NCBI RefSeq assembly: GCF_009931435.1
Contig: NZ_CP043414.1
Reading direction: 5' to 3' (one strand)
DNA from: Escherichia coli
GTDB taxonomy: Bacteria > Pseudomonadota > Gammaproteobacteria > Enterobacterales > Enterobacteriaceae
DNA length: 64,000 bases
The notes below the pieces were generated by a model. That model made no database searches and was not told the DNA's origin. It saw only the letters and a program-made list of their open reading frames with translations. Below, in pieces: positions 8,942 through 44,133 of this stretch (position 1 is the stretch's first letter; each line of letters starts with the position of its first letter). The translations under genes were made by a program, and so were the position numbers.

Positions 8942-9775
8942 TTAATTACTCAAACGCTGCGGATGGGTATAAACCGTTGCCCGACCCGGCTTACAAAAGC
9001 CCACCAGCGTCAAATTACAGCGCTCAGCCACTTCTACGGCAAGCGTGGTCGCGGCAGACACCGCAAACAAAATTTCTACGCCGCACATCGCTGACTTTTG
9101 CACCATTTCATAACTGGCACGACTGGAAACCAGCACCGCACCTTGCTGCCAGCTTTCCCCTTCTTGTGACCGGCGGCCTAACAGTTTATCCAGCGCCACA
9201 TGGCGACCCACGTCTTCATGCCCGCCTACCAGTTCGCCAGATGGCAACATCCAGGCAGCGGCGTGAGTACAACCAGTCAGTTGCCCCACTGGCTGGAAAT
9301 CATTGAGATGGCGTAATGCATCATCCAGTTTGTTGAGATCAAATGTCTGAGTGAACGGCAGCGGCTGCACCGGTTTACCGATGTCATTAAGTTGCTCCAC
9401 GCCGCACACACCACATCCCGTACGTCCCGCCAGTGCCCGACGACGCTCCTTCAACCCCATAAAGCGGCGGCTGGAAAGCTCAATTTGCACTTCCAGACCA
9501 TTACAGGAAGGAACGACATCCATACCGAAGATATCGCGCGGACTTTCGATAATCCCCTCGGAAAGCGAAAAACCGAGCGCAAAGTATTCAAGGTCTTTGG
9601 GCGACGCCATCATCACCACATGCGAAATGCCGTTGTAGACCAGCGCAACGGGAACCTCTTCCGCCACCTCATCTAACCGTGGGTGTTGTAAATCGTCACG
9701 CCGCCATAACTCAATTTGACGAACACCTGTGACATTTGTCACATTTTTGATTTCTTTTTGCTGTGTTTTTTTCAC
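8942..9775 (-). CDS. fdhD: Formate dehydrogenase accessory sulfurtransferase FdhD
   Basis: 277 aa [31 protein letters not shown]... recognised as FdhD; divergent from fdoG. Confidence 0.95.
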
Positions 9776-37882: not shown

Positions 37883-39706
37883 TTAATCGTCTTTCGGTGC
37901 GCGGTTGGCGCGACGACGATCGTTTTCCGTCAGGTGACGTTTACGAATACGGATAGAGGTCGGAGTCACTTCTACCAGTTCGTCATCATCGATGAACTCC
38001 AGAGCTTGTTCCAGAGTCATGCGGATAGGCGGAACCAGAACAACGGCTTCGTCAGTACCGGAAGCACGCATGTTGGTCAGTTTCTTACCGGTCAGACAGT
38101 TTACAGTCAGGTCGTTAGAACGGCTGTGAATACCGATAATCTGACCTTCGTAAACTTCTGCACCGTGACCGAGGAACAGCTTACCGCGATCCTGCAGACC
38201 GAACAGCGCGAACGCGACCGCTTTACCCTGACCGTTAGAGATCAGTACGCCATTCTGACGCTGACCCACTTCGCCCGGACGTACGTCGTCGTAGTGGCTG
38301 AAGGTGGAGTACAGCAGACCAGTACCGGAAGTCATGGTCATGAACTCAGAACGGAAGCCAATCAGACCACGGCTTGGGATCACGTAGTCGAGACGTACGC
38401 GGCCTTTACCGTCTGGATTCATGTTTTTCAGGTCGCCTTTACGTTCGCCCAGCGCCTGCATTACAGAACCCTGATGCTGTTCTTCAACGTCCAGAGTCAC
38501 GTTTTCATACGGCTCTTGTTTACGACCGTCAATTTCACGGAAGATAACTTTCGGACGGGATACCGCCAGTTCGAAACCTTCACGACGCATGTTTTCGATC
38601 AGAACAGACAAGTGCAGTTCGCCACGGCCAGAAACGCGGAACGCATCGGCATCTTCGGTTTCTTCTACGCGCAGCGCAACGTTGTGTACCAGTTCTTTGT
38701 TCAGACGATCCAGGATCTGACGAGACGTTACGAACTTACCTTCTTTACCGCAGAACGGTGAGGTGTTAACGCAGAAGAACATAGAAACGGTCGGCTCATC
38801 AACGGAGAGTGCCGGCAGCGCTTCAACGTTTTGCGTGTCGCAAACGGTGTCAGAAATGTTCAGTTCGCCCAGGCCCGTGATCGCCACGATATCGCCAGCT
38901 TCCGCCAGATCGGTTTCGATACGTTCCAGACCGAGGTGGCCCAGCACTTTACCGACTTTCGCGTTGCGGGTTTTGCCTTCGCTATCGATGATAGTAACTT
39001 GCTGGTTCGGCTTCACTTTACCGCGCTTGATGCGGCCAATGCCGATAACGCCAACATAGCTGTTGTAATCGAGCTGAGAAATCTGCATCTGGAACGGACC
39101 GTCAAGGTCAACGTCCGGCGCAGGAACGTGGTCAACAATTGCCTGATACAGCGGGGTCATGTCTTCTGCCATATCTTCGTGGTCCAGACCCGCGATACCG
39201 TTCAGCGCAGAAGCGTAAACGATCGGGAAGTCCAGCTGCTCGTCAGTCGCGTCGAGGTTAACGAACAGGTCGAATACCTGATCCACAACCCAGTCAGGAC
39301 GCGCGCCAGGGCGGTCAACTTTGTTGATAACAACAATTGGCTTCAGGCCGTAAGCAAACGCTTTTTTGGTTACGAAGCGCGTTTGCGGCATCGGGCCGTC
39401 AAATGCGTCAACCACCAGCAGCACTGAGTCTACCATGGACATTACACGTTCAACTTCACCACCGAAGTCGGCGTGCCCCGGGGTATCAACGATGTTGATA
39501 CGGTAATCATTCCATTTGATAGCGGTGTTTTTCGCGAGGATGGTAATCCCACGCTCTTTCTCCAAATCGTTGGAGTCCATCACGCGCTCTTGGGTTTCGG
39601 CACGAGAGTCGAACGTACCGGATTGTTGGAGCAGCTTGTCTACCAGGGTGGTTTTACCATGGTCTACGTGCGCGATGATGGCGATATTACGCAATTTTTC
39701 GATCAC
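37883..39706 (-). CDS. typA: Ribosome-dependent translational GTPase TypA/BipA
   Basis: 607 aa [29 protein letters not shown]... with EF-G-like GTPase motifs. Confidence 0.95.
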
Positions 39707-39856
39707 AACTTTGCCTCAGGCATTAGAAATAGCGCGTTATTGTACACGGATTAATCGCACTACAAAACAGGATCACAAACATCCTCCGCAAACAAGTATT
39801 GCAGAGTCCCTTTGTGATCGCTTTCACGGAGCATAAAAAGGGTTATCCAAAGGTCA

Positions 39857-39905
39857 TTGCACCAATATGGTGCTTAATGTTTCCATTGAAGCACTATATT
39901 GGTGC
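39857..39905 (+). promoter_or_regulatory. NtrC (NRI) enhancer binding sites upstream of glnA
   Basis: Palindromes TGCACCAATATGGTGC (39857-39872) and GCACTATATTGGTGCA (39890-39905), plus further TGCAC/GTGCA half-sites up to about 39950. Confidence 0.7.
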
Positions 39906-39978
39906 AACATTAACATCGTGGTGCAGCCCTTTTGCACGATGGTGCGCATGATAACGCCTTTTAGGGGCAATTTAAAAG

Positions 39979-39995
39979 TTGGCACAGATTTCGCT
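39979..39995 (+). promoter_or_regulatory. sigma54 promoter glnAp2
   Basis: TTGGCACAGATTTCGCT fits the -24 GG / -12 GC sigma54 consensus (TGGCAC-N5-TTGCW-like), about 85 nt upstream of the glnA start. Confidence 0.75.
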
Positions 39996-40078
39996 TTATC
40001 TTTTTTACGGCGACACGGCCAAAATAATTGCAGATTTCGTTACCACGACGACCATGACCAATCCAGGAGAGTTAAAGT

Positions 40079-41488
40079 ATGTCCGCTGAACACGTACTGA
40101 CGATGCTGAACGAGCACGAAGTGAAGTTTGTTGATTTGCGCTTCACCGACACCAAAGGTAAAGAACAGCACGTCACTATCCCTGCTCATCAGGTGAATGC
40201 TGAATTCTTCGAAGAAGGCAAAATGTTTGACGGCTCCTCGATTGGCGGCTGGAAAGGCATTAACGAATCCGACATGGTGCTGATGCCAGACGCATCCACC
40301 GCAGTGATTGACCCGTTCTTCGCGGACTCTACCCTGATTATCCGTTGCGATATCCTTGAACCAGGCACCCTGCAAGGCTATGACCGTGACCCGCGTTCCA
40401 TCGCGAAGCGCGCTGAAGATTACCTGCGTTCTACTGGCATTGCCGACACCGTACTGTTCGGGCCAGAACCTGAATTCTTCCTGTTCGATGACATCCGTTT
40501 CGGCGCGTCTATCTCCGGTTCTCATGTTGCCATCGACGATATCGAAGGTGCATGGAACTCCTCCACCAAATATGAAGGTGGTAACAAAGGTCACCGTCCG
40601 GCAGTGAAAGGCGGTTACTTCCCGGTTCCGCCGGTAGACTCTGCTCAGGATATCCGTTCTGAAATGTGTCTGGTGATGGAACAGATGGGTCTGGTTGTTG
40701 AAGCCCATCACCACGAAGTAGCGACTGCTGGTCAGAACGAAGTGGCTACCCGCTTCAATACCATGACCAAAAAAGCTGACGAAATTCAGATCTACAAATA
40801 TGTTGTGCACAACGTTGCACACCGCTTCGGTAAAACCGCGACCTTTATGCCAAAACCGATGTTCGGTGATAACGGCTCCGGTATGCACTGCCACATGTCA
40901 CTGTCTAAAAACGGCGTCAACCTGTTCGCTGGCGACAAATATGCAGGTCTGTCTGAGCAGGCGTTGTACTACATTGGCGGCGTAATCAAACACGCTAAAG
41001 CAATTAACGCCCTGGCAAACCCGACCACCAACTCTTACAAGCGTCTGGTCCCGGGCTACGAAGCACCGGTAATGCTGGCTTACTCTGCACGCAACCGTTC
41101 TGCGTCTATCCGTATTCCAGTGGTTTCTTCTCCGAAAGCACGTCGTATCGAAGTCCGTTTCCCGGACCCAGCGGCTAACCCGTACCTGTGCTTTGCTGCC
41201 CTGCTGATGGCCGGTCTTGATGGTATCAAGAACAAGATCCACCCAGGCGAAGCCATGGACAAAAACCTGTATGACCTGCCGCCAGAAGAAGCGAAAGAGA
41301 TCCCACAGGTTGCAGGCTCTCTGGAAGAAGCACTGAACGAACTGGATCTGGACCGCGAGTTCCTGAAAGCCGGTGGCGTGTTCACTGACGAAGCCATTGA
41401 TGCGTACATCGCTCTGCGTCGCGAAGAAAATGACCGCGTGCGTATGACTCCGCATCCGGTAGAGTTTGAGCTGTACTACAGCGTCTAA
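40079..41488 (+). CDS. glnA: Glutamine synthetase
   Basis: 469 aa [35 protein letters not shown]... recognised as GlnA. Confidence 0.97.
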
Positions 41489-41549
41489 TAGTTGAAGTTG
41501 TACTACCCGGTGCAAAGAAGGCCGGGATTTAGTTGCCGTGGAAACTTTC

Positions 41550-41576
41550 AGCCCATCTCTGCATGGGCTTTTTTCT
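41550..41576 (+). terminator. Intrinsic terminator in glnA 3' UTR
   Basis: Hairpin AGCCCAT-CTCTGC-ATGGGCT followed by TTTTTTCT; an additional hairpin CCCGGTGCAAAGAAGGCCGGG at 41506-41526. Confidence 0.6.
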
Positions 41577-41662
41577 CCGTAACTTCTTTGATGCTTCGCG
41601 CTTTTTATCCGTAAAAAGCTATAATGCACTAAAATGGTGCAACCTGTTCAGGAGACTGCTTT

Positions 41663-42712
41663 ATGGCAACAGGCACGCAGCCCGATGCTGGGCAGATCCT
41701 CAACTCACTGATTAACAGTATTTTGTTAATTGATGACAACCTGGCAATCCATTACGCCAACCCCGCCGCGCAACAACTACTCGCCCAAAGCTCCCGCAAA
41801 TTGTTTGGTACGCCGTTACCGGAACTGTTGAGCTACTTCTCATTAAATATCGAGCTGATGCAAGAAAGTCTGGAGGCGGGGCAAGGTTTTACCGATAACG
41901 AAGTGACGCTGGTGATCGACGGTCGCTCGCATATCCTTTCTGTGACGGCCCAGCGTATGCCGGACGGCATGATCCTGCTGGAGATGGCACCGATGGATAA
42001 CCAGCGCCGCTTAAGTCAGGAACAGCTACAGCACGCCCAGCAGGTTGCTGCCCGTGATTTAGTGCGCGGCCTGGCGCATGAGATTAAAAATCCGCTTGGC
42101 GGTTTACGTGGCGCGGCCCAGTTGCTCAGCAAAGCATTACCTGACCCGTCACTGCTGGAATATACCAAAGTGATTATTGAACAGGCGGATCGGTTGCGAA
42201 ATCTGGTCGACCGTCTGTTGGGGCCGCAACTGCCCGGTACGCGCGTTACCGAAAGTATTCACAAAGTGGCTGAACGCGTGGTGACGCTGGTGTCGATGGA
42301 ACTGCCGGACAACGTGCGGTTGATTCGTGATTACGACCCCAGCCTGCCGGAACTGGCGCACGACCCGGATCAAATTGAACAGGTATTGCTGAATATTGTG
42401 CGCAATGCGCTACAGGCACTGGGGCCGGAAGGTGGTGAAATCATTCTGCGTACCCGCACCGCGTTTCAACTGACCTTACACGGCGAGCGCTATCGGCTGG
42501 CGGCGCGGATTGATGTGGAAGATAACGGGCCAGGCATTCCGCCTCATTTGCAGGATACGCTGTTTTACCCGATGGTCAGCGGCCGCGAAGGTGGCACCGG
42601 GCTTGGCTTATCCATCGCCCGTAATTTGATTGATCAGCATTCAGGCAAAATTGAATTTACCAGTTGGCCAGGTCATACCGAGTTCTCGGTTTACCTGCCT
42701 ATCAGGAAATAA
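41663..42712 (+). CDS. glnL: Nitrogen regulation sensor histidine kinase NtrB (NRII)
   Basis: 349 aa ORF with H-box HEIKNPLGG. Confidence 0.95.
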
Positions 42713-42723
42713 AGGTGACGTTT

Positions 42724-44133
42724 ATGCAACGAGGGATAGTCTGGGTAGTCGATGACGATAGTTCCATCCGTTGGGTGCTTGAACGTGCGCTCGCTGGAGC
42801 AGGTTTAACCTGTACGACGTTTGAGAACGGCGCGGAAGTGCTGGAGGCGCTGGCGAGCAAAACACCGGATGTACTGCTTTCAGATATCCGTATGCCGGGA
42901 ATGGACGGGCTTGCGCTGCTCAAGCAGATTAAACAGCGCCATCCGATGCTTCCGGTCATCATTATGACCGCACATTCCGATCTGGATGCTGCCGTCAGCG
43001 CCTATCAACAAGGGGCGTTTGATTATCTGCCCAAACCGTTTGATATCGACGAAGCCGTGGCGCTGGTTGAGCGCGCCATCAGCCATTATCAGGAACAGCA
43101 GCAACCGCGTAATGTTCAGCTTAACGGCCCGACGACCGATATCATCGGCGAAGCGCCAGCCATGCAGGACGTGTTCCGGATTATCGGTCGGCTTTCACGT
43201 TCTTCTATTAGCGTGCTGATTAACGGCGAATCCGGCACCGGTAAAGAACTGGTCGCTCATGCCCTGCATCGCCACAGTCCTCGAGCCAAAGCGCCGTTTA
43301 TCGCGCTGAATATGGCGGCTATCCCGAAGGATTTGATCGAATCAGAACTGTTCGGTCACGAGAAAGGCGCGTTTACCGGCGCGAATACCATTCGTCAGGG
43401 GCGTTTTGAACAGGCCGATGGCGGCACGTTATTCCTCGATGAAATTGGCGATATGCCGCTCGATGTACAGACGCGTTTGCTGCGCGTGCTGGCAGACGGT
43501 CAGTTTTATCGCGTTGGCGGCTATGCGCCGGTGAAAGTGGATGTGCGGATTATCGCTGCGACCCATCAGAATCTCGAACAGCGGGTACAGGAAGGCAAGT
43601 TCCGTGAGGATTTGTTCCACCGCCTGAACGTTATCCGCGTTCATCTGCCGCCGCTGCGTGAGCGTCGGGAAGATATTCCCCGTCTGGCACGCCATTTTTT
43701 ACAGGTTGCCGCGCGCGAACTGGGCGTAGAAGCGAAGTTGCTGCATCCGGAAACCGAAGCCGCGCTGACGCGTCTGGCATGGCCGGGTAACGTGCGCCAG
43801 CTGGAAAACACCTGCCGTTGGTTAACGGTGATGGCCGCCGGGCAGGAAGTGTTGATTCAGGATTTGCCTGGCGAACTGTTTGAATCAACGGTTGCGGAGA
43901 GTACTCCGCAAATGCAACCGGACAGTTGGGCAACGCTGTTAGCGCAGTGGGCAGACAGAGCGCTGCGTTCCGGTCATCAAAATTTGCTTTCCGAAGCGCA
44001 GCCTGAGCTTGAGCGGACGTTACTGACGACCGCGTTGCGACATACGCAGGGGCATAAACAGGAAGCTGCGCGGCTACTTGGCTGGGGGCGTAACACCCTG
44101 ACGCGGAAGTTAAAAGAGCTGGGGATGGAGTGA
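42724..44133 (+). CDS. glnG: Nitrogen regulation response regulator NtrC (NRI)
   Basis: Start at [19 protein letters not shown] (469 aa); receiver domain, sigma54-activator AAA+ domain (GESGTGKE), C-terminal HTH. Confidence 0.95.

What the first reader, a model, noticed from the sequence alone, without database searches (positions are those of the whole stretch)
39857..39995. glnA control region: NtrC enhancer palindromes and sigma54 promoter
Tandem TGCACC-N-GGTGCA-type palindromes and a TTGGCACAGATTTCGCT sigma54 promoter are readable directly in the typA-glnA spacer. This is the classical textbook architecture, included for completeness.
Basis: partly seen in the sequence, partly recalled or inferred. 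Interest (0 to 1): 0.25.

Follow-up and report, generated by a model that had tools for sequence, protein, structure and literature searches.

The report
E. coli glnA nitrogen-control promoter region
This is the well-known switch in front of the E. coli glutamine synthetase gene: two strong binding sites for the nitrogen regulator NtrC sit about 100-140 bases upstream of a sigma-54 promoter. It is real and deeply conserved, but it is already textbook knowledge.

Summary
The window is E. coli chromosome, and 39857-39995 lies in the 372-bp typA/glnA spacer.

- **Motifs present:** TGCACCAATATGGTGCT (39858-39874), AGCACTATATTGGTGCA (39890-39906) and TTGGCACAGATTTCGCT (39979-39995).
- **Geometry:** with the predicted start at 40006, the two palindromes centre at -140 and -108, the published positions of NtrC sites I and II of glnAp2.
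- **Published binding:** the 17-mer is letter for letter the sigma-54 ChIP-seq site listed for glnA in K-12.
- **Statistics:** the NtrC palindromes far exceed chance (2 hits with at most 1 mismatch against 0.01 expected). The joint layout occurred in 0 of 400 random sequences.
the sigma-54 motif alone is not above chance. With an independent matrix it ranks only 6th to 9th in the window, because it has C instead of T at -14. A matrix threshold is therefore not a decisive test.
- **Conservation:** of 110 Enterobacterales glnA loci chosen by coding sequence only, all keep the -24/-12 element and 104 keep both NtrC sites at fixed distance.

Verdict: already known, low interest. Side notes: a conserved CRP site, a common E. 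coli variant that destroys low-affinity site IV, and an antisense typA-leader RNA (ES222).

The parts
39813..39828 (.). CRP (cAMP receptor protein) site TGTGATCGCTTTCACG. It is centred at -185.5 from glnAp2 +1, which is about -70.5 from glnAp1, a class I activator position.
   Evidence: Seen. It has 1 mismatch to TGTGA-N6-TCACA (the consensus alone is not above chance, 2 hits against 1.83 expected). It is present with 1 mismatch at -184.5 to -186.5 in 105 of 106 orthologous loci. The literature places a classical CRP site upstream of glnAp1 (PMC1865078).
39857..39891 (+). Approximate extent of glnAp1, the weak sigma-70 promoter. It has a -35-like TTGCAC at 39857-39862 and a start near 39891 (115 bp upstream of glnAp2). 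No convincing -10 hexamer is present.
   Evidence: The position is inferred from PMC1865078 (glnAp1 lies 115 bp upstream of glnAp2, is CRP-activated and is blocked by NtrC-P). The sigma-70 consensus scan found nothing on the plus strand here, which fits a weak promoter. The hexamer assignment is my inference.
39858..39874 (.). NtrC high-affinity site I (enhancer), TGCACCAATATGGTGCT, centre 39866 = -140.
   Evidence: 1 mismatch of 14. 105 of 110 orthologs have an NtrC-like site within -140 +/- 3. The literature centres site I at -140 (PMC5159524).
39890..39906 (.). NtrC high-affinity site II (enhancer), AGCACTATATTGGTGCA, centre 39898 = -108. It lies 32 bp (about 3 helical turns) from site I.
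   Evidence: 2 mismatches. 109 of 110 orthologs have a site within -108 +/- 3. The 32-bp gap accounts for 100 of the 143 gaps between successive NtrC-like sites. The literature centres site II at -108.
39909..39925 (.). NtrC low-affinity site III (centre -89), ATTAACATCGTGGTGCA. The right half TGGTGCA (39919-39925) is strongly conserved and the left half is degenerate.
   Evidence: 4 mismatches here. The right half-site has its consensus base in 107 or 108 of 108 orthologs at each of its seven positions. The literature gives low-affinity sites at -89, -66 and -45.
39933..39945 (.). NtrC low-affinity 'governor' site IV (centre about -66/-67), a compressed dyad TGCAC-GAT-GGTGC.
   Evidence: only 5 of 14 mismatches at best, so it cannot be recognised by the consensus alone. 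The position comes from the literature. Its GGTGC half is replaced by GTTAA in a second major E. coli haplotype.
39953..39969 (.). Region of NtrC low-affinity site V (centre -45) and of the weak CRP site at -51.5 that represses glnAp2.
   Evidence: The assignment rests on the literature only. The sequence match to the NtrC consensus is poor (6 mismatches). The block GCATGATAACGCCTTTT is conserved within Enterobacteriaceae.
39979..39995 (+). glnAp2 sigma-54 (-24/-12) promoter TTGGCACAGATTTCGCT. GG is at 39981-39982 and GC at 39993-39994.
   Evidence: The 17-mer is identical to site OS37 of the K-12 sigma-54 ChIP-seq table (glnA, distance 73, PSSM 11.277, 'experimentally confirmed in EcoCyc') in PMC4591121. 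TTGGCA and the T-tract at -17..-15 are invariant or nearly so (107-108 of 108) in the orthologs.
40006..40078 (+). Predicted glnAp2 transcription start (40006) and the 73-nt leader, with Shine-Dalgarno AGGAG at 40065-40069.
   Evidence: The start is taken as 19 bp downstream of the motif centre, following PMC4591121. 40079 - 40006 = 73, which matches that paper's table. The start was not measured here.
40079..41488 (+). glnA, glutamine synthetase, the regulated gene.
   Evidence: NCBIfam equivalog NF007006, 1048 bits. RefSeq annotation of the identical strain.
41620..41641 (+). glnL promoter -10 (TATAAT, 41620-41625), abutting and overlapping the third NtrC palindrome TGCACTAAAATGGTGCA (41625-41641). 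This is the operator for negative autoregulation.
   Evidence: The literature describes glnLp as an NtrC-repressed promoter.
41663..44133 (+). glnL (NtrB sensor kinase, 41663-42712) and glnG (NtrC, the activator that binds the sites, 42724-44133), co-transcribed with glnA.
   Evidence: NCBIfam equivalogs NF008293 (701 bits) and NF008176 (1050 bits). RefSeq annotation.
39788..39895 (-). ES222 / ECS224 RNA on the typA strand. This is a typA-leader fragment, antisense to the glnAp1 leader, whose 5' end lies inside NtrC site II.
   Evidence: Rfam RF02755, 133 bits against a gathering score of 62. [quoted passage not shown]

Best explanation
The interval is the upstream control region of the E. coli glnALG operon.

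**Activation of glnAp2.** RNA polymerase carrying sigma-54 binds the -24/-12 element (39979-39995) as a closed complex that cannot start on its own. Under nitrogen limitation, NtrB (glnL) phosphorylates NtrC (glnG), and both are encoded downstream in the same operon. NtrC~P dimers bind the two strong dyads at -140 and -108 and assemble into an ATPase oligomer. This oligomer reaches the promoter by looping out the roughly 100 bp between, and uses ATP hydrolysis to open the promoter. Transcription starts near 40006 and raises glutamine synthetase, NtrB and NtrC together, giving positive autoregulation.

**Repression of glnAp1.** The same two sites overlap the weak sigma-70 promoter glnAp1 (start about 39891). 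NtrC binding therefore shuts it off. A CRP site at 39813-39828 activates glnAp1 when carbon is poor.

**Modulation and autoregulation.** Weaker NtrC sites between enhancer and promoter (-89, -66, -45) modulate output and cap it at high NtrC~P (the 'governor'). A third strong NtrC dyad at the glnL promoter (41625-41641) gives negative autoregulation.

**Basis of each step.** Shown here: the motifs, their positions, their excess over chance, their conservation and the identity of the genes. Taken from published experiments on K-12, whose spacer differs at 2 of 372 positions, neither at a consensus-specified base of a strong site: the binding, looping, ATP dependence and regulation. Inferred: that this strain behaves the same way.
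For: - **Organism and genes.** The DNA is E. coli: 601 bp are 100% identical to strain 2020CK-00188 and 95-100% identical in 5425 of 5426 complete genomes, always between typA and glnA. GlnA, NtrB, NtrC and TypA are confirmed above the curated cut-offs.
- **Positions.** The motifs lie at 39858-39874, 39890-39906 and 39979-39995. They centre at -140 and -108 from a start 73 nt before the ATG, exactly as published.
- **Excess over chance.** NtrC dyads: 2 hits with at most 1 mismatch against 0.010 expected. Joint architecture: 0 of 400 random sequences.
- **Conservation.** 110 Enterobacterales loci were picked by the glnA N-terminal coding sequence only. All keep TGGCA[CT]-N5-T[CA]GC, and 104 keep NtrC-like sites at both -140 +/- 3 and -108 +/- 3. 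The usual spacing is 32 bp, while leader length drifts from 45 to 259 nt.
- **Protein-binding pattern.** Changes in the dyads break symmetry on one side far more often than they are compensated (92 against 3, and 64 against 3). This is the pattern of protein-binding half-sites, not of an RNA stem.
- **Published binding in K-12.** Sigma-54 ChIP-seq lists this exact 17-mer for glnA. The NtrC ChIP-seq peak at glnALG is the largest among the Table 1 rows I could read (71-fold), and NtrC-P shifted a glnA probe in EMSA. NtrC gSELEX gives a 97% peak in the glnA/typA spacer. In a glnG deletion strain, glnAp2 transcription is lost and glnAp1 transcription rises.
Against: - The sigma-54 motif alone is not statistically distinguishable from background. 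It ranks 9th (or 6th with a larger pseudocount) of about 128,000 positions with a matrix from 41 independent sites. Every random 64-kb sequence contained a better hit.
- It carries C at -14, where all 41 training sites have T.
- Sites IV and V cannot be recognised from sequence (5-6 mismatches of 14), and glnAp1 has no convincing -10 hexamer. These parts rest on the literature only.
- No experiment was done on this strain.
- The same DNA is transcribed on the other strand, so some of the conservation could serve typA.
Confidence: 0.97

Rival explanations
1. The palindromes act mainly at the RNA level. They would form hairpins in the typA 5' leader / ES222 RNA transcribed from the minus strand, or in the glnAp1 leader, rather than serving as protein-binding sites.
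For: Rfam ES222 matches the minus strand at 39788-39895 with 133 bits, and an RNA with this 5' end was sequenced. The typA leader folds better than shuffled sequence (z = -3.27), and one stem is the site I palindrome.
Against: - Across 108 orthologs the dyad halves stay close to the NtrC consensus.
- Changes on one side are not compensated on the other (92 against 3 for site I, 64 against 3 for site II).
- Site II is cut by the RNA's 5' end, so it cannot form a hairpin in that RNA.
- The same 17-mer recurs at glnLp, outside that RNA.
- NtrC binding has been demonstrated in vivo and in vitro.
- An extra RNA-level role on top of NtrC binding is not excluded.
Confidence: 0.02
2. The motifs are chance matches in an AT-rich spacer. 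glnA would be driven only by an ordinary sigma-70 promoter.
For: The sigma-54 consensus and matrix hits at this quality are expected by chance in 64 kb. A sigma-70 promoter (glnAp1) does exist here.
Against: - NtrC dyads occur about 200-fold over expectation.
- The joint layout was never seen in 400 random sequences.
- Positions are fixed in 104 of 110 species although the leader length varies.
- ChIP-seq places sigma-54 and NtrC here.
- glnAp1 contributes at most 0.8% of glnA transcripts.
Confidence: 0.005
3. The conserved block between the enhancer and the -24 element (39946-39978) is conserved mainly because it holds the divergent typA promoter (TTTAAA-17-TATCAT on the minus strand, 39976..39948), not because of NtrC site V or the weak CRP site. 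This concerns one sub-part only and is compatible with the main explanation.
For: A sigma-70-like match lies on the minus strand (9 of 12). GCATGATAACGCCTTTT...TTTAAAAG is nearly invariant in Enterobacteriaceae, although its match to the NtrC consensus is poor. The TATCAT complement is also present in Yersinia.
Against: - The scan found no more promoter-like sites than in shuffled sequence (2 against 2.4).
- The sequenced RNA starts at 39895, not near 39941.
- No typA start-site data could be found.
- Published footprints assign NtrC and CRP to this stretch.
Confidence: 0.15

Closest known systems
E. coli K-12 glnAp1/glnAp2 control region of glnALG (Reitzer & Magasanik 1985-86; Ninfa et al. 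1987; Atkinson et al. 2002)
   Same: This is the same locus. The 372-bp spacer is identical at 370 positions. It has the same sigma-54 17-mer, the same sites I-V, the same CRP site, the same 73-nt leader and the same glnLp operator.
   Different: There are two single-base differences. T replaces C in the unspecified centre of site I (39866); T is the majority base in E. coli and across species. A replaces C in the degenerate left half of site III (39914), apparently a rare allele. The glnA-glnL spacer is 111 nt shorter than in K-12.
Other NtrC-activated sigma-54 promoters of E. coli (glnK, nac, glnHp2, astC)
   Same: They share the logic: a -24/-12 promoter, upstream NtrC dyads of the TGCACCAnnnTGGTGCA type, and activation by looping.
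   Different: - glnAp2 has two strong sites that double as operators of an overlapping sigma-70 promoter, plus three weak sites in the loop.
- It needs no IHF, whereas glnHp2 is naturally bound by IHF (and astC by ArgR) (abstract of PMC2709558).
- It is the only one of the 42 intergenic sense ChIP sites with C instead of T at -14.
glnA promoters of Salmonella, Klebsiella and other Enterobacterales
   Same: The CRP site, sites I and II, the right half of site III and the TTGGCA...GC element occupy the same positions relative to one another.
   Different: Sites IV and V and the leader vary. Leader length runs from 45 to 259 nt. Outside Enterobacteriaceae, the region between -80 and -30 is not conserved.

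Membership tests
Sigma-54 (-24/-12) promoter | GG and GC dinucleotides exactly 10 bp apart within TGGCAC-N5-TTGCW | tested here: met
   TGGCACAGATTTCGCT at 39980-39995 has 1 mismatch (C for T at -14) and keeps GG and GC intact.
Sigma-54 (-24/-12) promoter | Matrix score clearly above genomic background | tested here: inconclusive
   With a matrix from 41 independent ChIP sites it scores 11.5-12.7 bits and ranks 6th-9th in the window. That is above only 2-3 of the 41 training sites and below the best hit of every random 64 kb. The published PSSM value of 11.277 is mid-range among real sites.
Sigma-54 (-24/-12) promoter | Intergenic, oriented toward a gene, with a plausible leader | tested here: met
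   It is on the plus strand with the predicted start 73 nt before the glnA ATG.
Sigma-54 (-24/-12) promoter | Occupied by sigma-54 holoenzyme and dependent on an enhancer-binding ATPase | not testable with these tools
   The literature for the identical K-12 sequence gives a sigma-54 ChIP-seq peak (OS37) and shows that glnAp2 transcription is lost in a glnG deletion.
NtrC (NRI) enhancer / upstream activator sites | 17-bp dyad TGCACCAnnnTGGTGCA | tested here: met
   Site I has 1 mismatch and site II has 2. The expected number with at most 1 mismatch is 0.010 per 64 kb. The consensus is taken from PMC8743547.
NtrC (NRI) enhancer / upstream activator sites | Two strong sites about three helical turns apart, roughly 100 bp or more upstream of the promoter | tested here: met
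   The centres are 32 bp apart, at -140 and -108. The same spacing and distance hold in 104 of 110 orthologs.
NtrC (NRI) enhancer / upstream activator sites | Cognate activator encoded in the genome | tested here: met
   glnG at 42724-44133 matches the NR(I) equivalog at 1050 bits against a cut-off of 620. glnL matches NR(II) at 701 bits.
NtrC (NRI) enhancer / upstream activator sites | Binding by NtrC~P | not testable with these tools
   The literature gives a 71-fold ChIP-seq peak and an EMSA shift, and a 97% gSELEX peak.
Class I CRP-dependent sigma-70 promoter (glnAp1) | CRP dyad TGTGA-N6-TCACA centred near -61.5, -71.5 or a further helical turn upstream | tested here: met
   TGTGATCGCTTTCACG at 39813-39828 has 1 mismatch. 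Its centre is about -70.5 from a start placed 115 bp upstream of glnAp2. It is conserved in 105 of 106 orthologs. The start position comes from the literature and was not measured.
Class I CRP-dependent sigma-70 promoter (glnAp1) | Recognisable -35 and -10 hexamers | tested here: inconclusive
   A -35-like TTGCAC lies at 39857-39862. No good -10 was found, and the consensus scan found nothing on the plus strand. This fits a weak, activator-dependent promoter.

The most novel reading that the evidence does not exclude
E. coli carries two common versions of the weak-site region. About 58% of complete genomes (K-12, B and this strain) keep the ancestral GGTGC half of low-affinity 'governor' site IV. 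About 40% (O157:H7 and others) have GTTAA there, three substitutions within four bases. Published mutation of sites III/IV raises glnAp2 output at high NtrC~P. The second group may therefore lack part of the brake and express more glutamine synthetase and NtrC under severe nitrogen starvation. A second small oddity is that the non-consensus base at -14 (C or A, never T) is conserved in all 108 orthologs. This suggests selection for a sub-optimal -12 element.
Probability: 0.25. Interest if true: 0.3.

Novelty: already known. Interest (0 to 1): 0.06.

Why it matters
glnAp2 is the system in which bacterial enhancers, DNA looping and sigma-54 activation were first worked out. Finding it here adds nothing to biology. 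Its value for the scan is as a positive control: a reader working from raw sequence located a real regulatory architecture to the base.

It also gives a practical lesson. A sigma-54 matrix score alone would not have separated this very well-studied promoter from background. Gene context, the associated activator sites and conservation did.

Tried and rejected
- **Sigma-54 matrix scan** and consensus scan. Both are uninformative on their own, because the site is within chance expectation. I keep this as a caveat, not as evidence against.
- **Independent NtrC matrix.** The table of 93 gSELEX NtrC sites is not in the held supplement of PMC8743547. I used the published 17-mer consensus with Monte Carlo simulation, plus ortholog counts, instead.
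- **Sigma-70 scan for glnAp1.** Nothing was found on the plus strand. glnAp1 was placed from the literature only.
- **typA start site.** Literature and supplement searches gave nothing usable. Only the ECS224 RNA entry turned up.
- **Weak Rfam hits** over the palindromes at E-values 0.004-0.1 (IS605-orfB-I, mir-4703, rliD). All are far below their gathering scores, and I dismissed them as chance matches driven by the palindromes. The weak Ysr49 hit at 41469-41574 probably reflects the shared glnA 3'UTR terminator and was not pursued.
- **RNA-hairpin reading of the dyads.** Rejected on the substitution pattern.
- **CRP consensus alone.** Not above chance in the window. The site is accepted because of its conservation and the literature.

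Full report
**What is there.** The window is E. coli chromosome. A 601-bp stretch around the finding is 100% identical to strain 2020CK-00188. It is 95-100% identical in 5425 of 5426 complete E. coli genomes, always between typA and glnA. The finding lies in the 372-bp spacer between typA (37883-39706, minus strand) and glnA (40079-41488, plus strand). glnL (41663-42712) and glnG (42724-44133) follow glnA. All four proteins match their NCBIfam equivalog models far above the curated cut-offs: GlnA 1048 bits, NR(II) 701, NR(I) 1050 and TypA 1442.

- TGCACCAATATGGTGCT at 39858-39874
- AGCACTATATTGGTGCA at 39890-39906
- further GGTGCA/TGCAC half-sites up to 39948
- TTGGCACAGATTTCGCT at 39979-39995

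**Is it more than chance?** The two motif types behave differently.

The 17-bp NtrC consensus TGCACCAnnnTGGTGCA is taken from PMC8743547. With at most 1 mismatch it gives 2 hits against 0.010 expected in Markov-simulated 64-kb sequences. With at most 2 mismatches it gives 3 hits against 0.31 expected. The third hit (41625-41641) lies in the glnA-glnL spacer, directly after a TATAAT. This is the known glnL operator-promoter (literature).

The sigma-54 consensus does not stand out. With at most 1 mismatch it gives 2 hits against 3.17 expected. I built a weight matrix from the 41 other intergenic sigma-54 ChIP-seq motifs printed in Table 1 of Bonocora et al. 2015 (PMC4591121), leaving glnA out. 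With it:
- the glnAp2 17-mer scores 11.5-12.7 bits, depending on the pseudocount;
- it ranks 9th or 6th among about 128,000 positions in the window;
- it lies below the best hit of every one of 200 random sequences.

The cause is a single base.

The joint arrangement is what exceeds chance. An NtrC-like dyad 50-250 bp upstream of a GG-N10-GC element with at most 1 mismatch never occurred in 400 random sequences.

**Geometry.** Bonocora et al. place the start 19 bp downstream of the motif centre. That gives 40006, which is 73 nt before the ATG and matches the 'distance 73' in their glnA row. From that point the two strong dyads centre at -140 and -108. These are the published positions of NtrC sites I and II (PMC5159524). 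The published low-affinity sites at -89, -66 and -45 fall on three stretches:
- 39909-39925, which has a good right half TGGTGCA;
- the compressed dyad TGCAC-GAT-GGTGC at 39933-39945;
- a stretch with no recognisable consensus, 39953-39969.

glnAp1 is reported 115 bp upstream of glnAp2, CRP-activated and NtrC-repressed (PMC1865078). This puts its start near 39891, so sites I and II cover it. The dyad TGTGATCGCTTTCACG at 39813-39828 then centres near -70.5, a class I CRP position.

**Conservation.** I fetched glnA loci from the species-representative genome collection using a degenerate pattern for the first 13 codons of glnA. The upstream region therefore played no part in the selection. Of the loci returned, 110 hold 450 nt of upstream sequence. 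They span Enterobacteriaceae, Yersiniaceae, Pectobacteriaceae, Hafniaceae and others.

- All 110 have TGGCA[CT]-N5-T[CA]GC[TA].
- 104 have NtrC-like sites at both -140 +/- 3 and -108 +/- 3. The gap between successive NtrC-like sites is 32 bp in 100 of the 143 gaps counted.
- Meanwhile the promoter-to-ATG distance wanders from 45 to 259 nt. The enhancer-promoter geometry is held fixed, not the position relative to the gene.
- 105 of 106 keep the CRP dyad at -184.5 to -186.5.
- The right half of site III has its consensus base in 107 or 108 of 108 distinct sequences at each position.
- Substitutions in sites I and II mostly break the dyad on one side (92 and 64 cases) and are rarely compensated (3 and 3). 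This fits protein half-sites and argues against an RNA stem.

**Published experiments on the same sequence.** K-12 differs from the window at 2 of 372 spacer positions. One is the unspecified centre of site I; the other is the degenerate left half of site III.
- Sigma-54 ChIP-seq lists this exact 17-mer for glnA and marks it experimentally confirmed.
- The NtrC ChIP-seq peak at glnALG (71-fold) is the largest among the Table 1 rows I could read. There is a second peak at glnLG, and NtrC-P shifted a glnA probe in EMSA.
- NtrC gSELEX gives a 97% peak in the glnA/typA spacer.
- In a glnG deletion strain, glnAp2 transcription is lost and glnAp1 transcription rises.
- Mutating the weak sites changes output in the way the 'governor' model describes.

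**Mechanism.** Sigma-54 holoenzyme sits at -24/-12 in a closed complex. Under nitrogen limitation NtrB phosphorylates NtrC. NtrC~P binds sites I and II and oligomerises. It contacts the polymerase by looping and opens the promoter with ATP. The same binding represses glnAp1. The weak sites tune and cap the response. CRP links the system to carbon status. Read-through into glnL-glnG gives positive feedback, and the glnLp operator gives negative feedback. The sequence features, their statistics and their conservation are shown here. The biochemical steps come from the cited literature. The transfer to this particular strain is an inference that I consider safe.

**The other strand.** Rfam family ES222 matches 39788-39895 on the minus strand at 133 bits against a gathering score of 62. 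Shinhara et al. 2011 list a sequenced 64-nt RNA (ECS224) with the same 5' end and call it cis-antisense to the glnALG 5' UTR. Its 5' end lies inside site II. No sigma-70 -10 hexamer precedes it, so it may be a processed piece of a longer typA leader. A sigma-70-like match on the minus strand (TTTAAA-17-TATCAT, 39976..39948) would start such a leader near 39941, inside the glnAp2 loop region. I found no start-site data to test this. The typA leader folds better than shuffled sequence (z = -3.27), but one of its stems is simply the site I palindrome.

**Variation within E. coli.** Over 39916-39978, 3161 genomes match the window/K-12 version exactly, and 2186 match a second version exactly. The second version has GTTAA in place of the GGTGC half of site IV, plus a change in the centre of site III. 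Salmonella and Enterobacter keep GGTGCG, so the second version looks derived. Whether it weakens the governor is untested.

**Verdict.** The element is already known in full detail, so interest is low.

Noticed in passing
window 39788-39895, minus strand: Rfam ES222 sRNA match (133 bits). A sequenced 64-nt RNA (ECS224 of Shinhara 2011) has the same 5' end and was described as cis-antisense to the glnALG 5' UTR. The RNA starts inside NtrC site II and runs toward typA. It is probably part of the typA leader, which ends in a conserved hairpin (39806-39784).
   Followed up: partly
window 39976..39948, minus strand: A sigma-70-like promoter match (TTTAAA-17-TATCAT) points toward typA and sits between the glnAp2 -24 element and NtrC site IV. 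It lies within a block that is nearly invariant in Enterobacteriaceae. It could be the typA promoter embedded in the glnAp2 loop. No start-site data were found.
   Followed up: partly
window 39919 and 39942-39945 (low-affinity NtrC sites III/IV): There are two major E. coli haplotypes. GATGGTGCGCATG (this strain, K-12, B) is exact in 3161 genomes. GATGTTAAGCATG (O157:H7 and others) is exact in 2186 genomes. The second destroys the GGTGC half of governor site IV through three changes within four bases.
   Followed up: partly
window 39992 (position -14 of glnAp2): glnAp2 has C where all 41 other intergenic sense E. coli sigma-54 ChIP sites used for the matrix have T. In 108 orthologous glnA promoters this base is C (92) or A (16) and never T. 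This is a conserved departure from the consensus.
   Followed up: partly
window 14084-14100, plus strand (inside fdoI): The best sigma-54 matrix hit of the whole window is CTGGCGCGCATTCTGCA, in the sense direction inside fdoI. It is one base different from the published intragenic sigma-54 ChIP site IS47 (fdoI) of K-12.
   Followed up: partly
window 41489-41662 (glnA-glnL spacer): The spacer is 174 nt here against 285 nt in K-12. K-12 carries extra REP-like DNA within the annotated glnZ sRNA (glnA 3' UTR). Both strains share the terminator AGCCCATCTCTGCATGGGCTTTTTT (41550-41575) and the glnLp TATAAT plus NtrC operator. So this strain has a short form of the glnA 3' UTR.
   Followed up: partly
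window 39914: There is an A where K-12 and the three other E. coli strains aligned have C (ATTAAC against ATTCAC), in the degenerate left half of site III. Only one genome in the sampled listing matched the whole spacer at 100%, so the allele looks rare.
   Followed up: no
window 9728-9743: A perfect CRP-type palindrome TGTGACATTTGTCACA lies near the start of fdhD, in the fdoG-fdhD divergent region.
   Followed up: no
window about 16600-18500: The RefSeq annotation of the identical strain shows a transposase gene and a truncated pseudogene between fabY and yiiE. This would be an insertion relative to the K-12 order.
   Followed up: no
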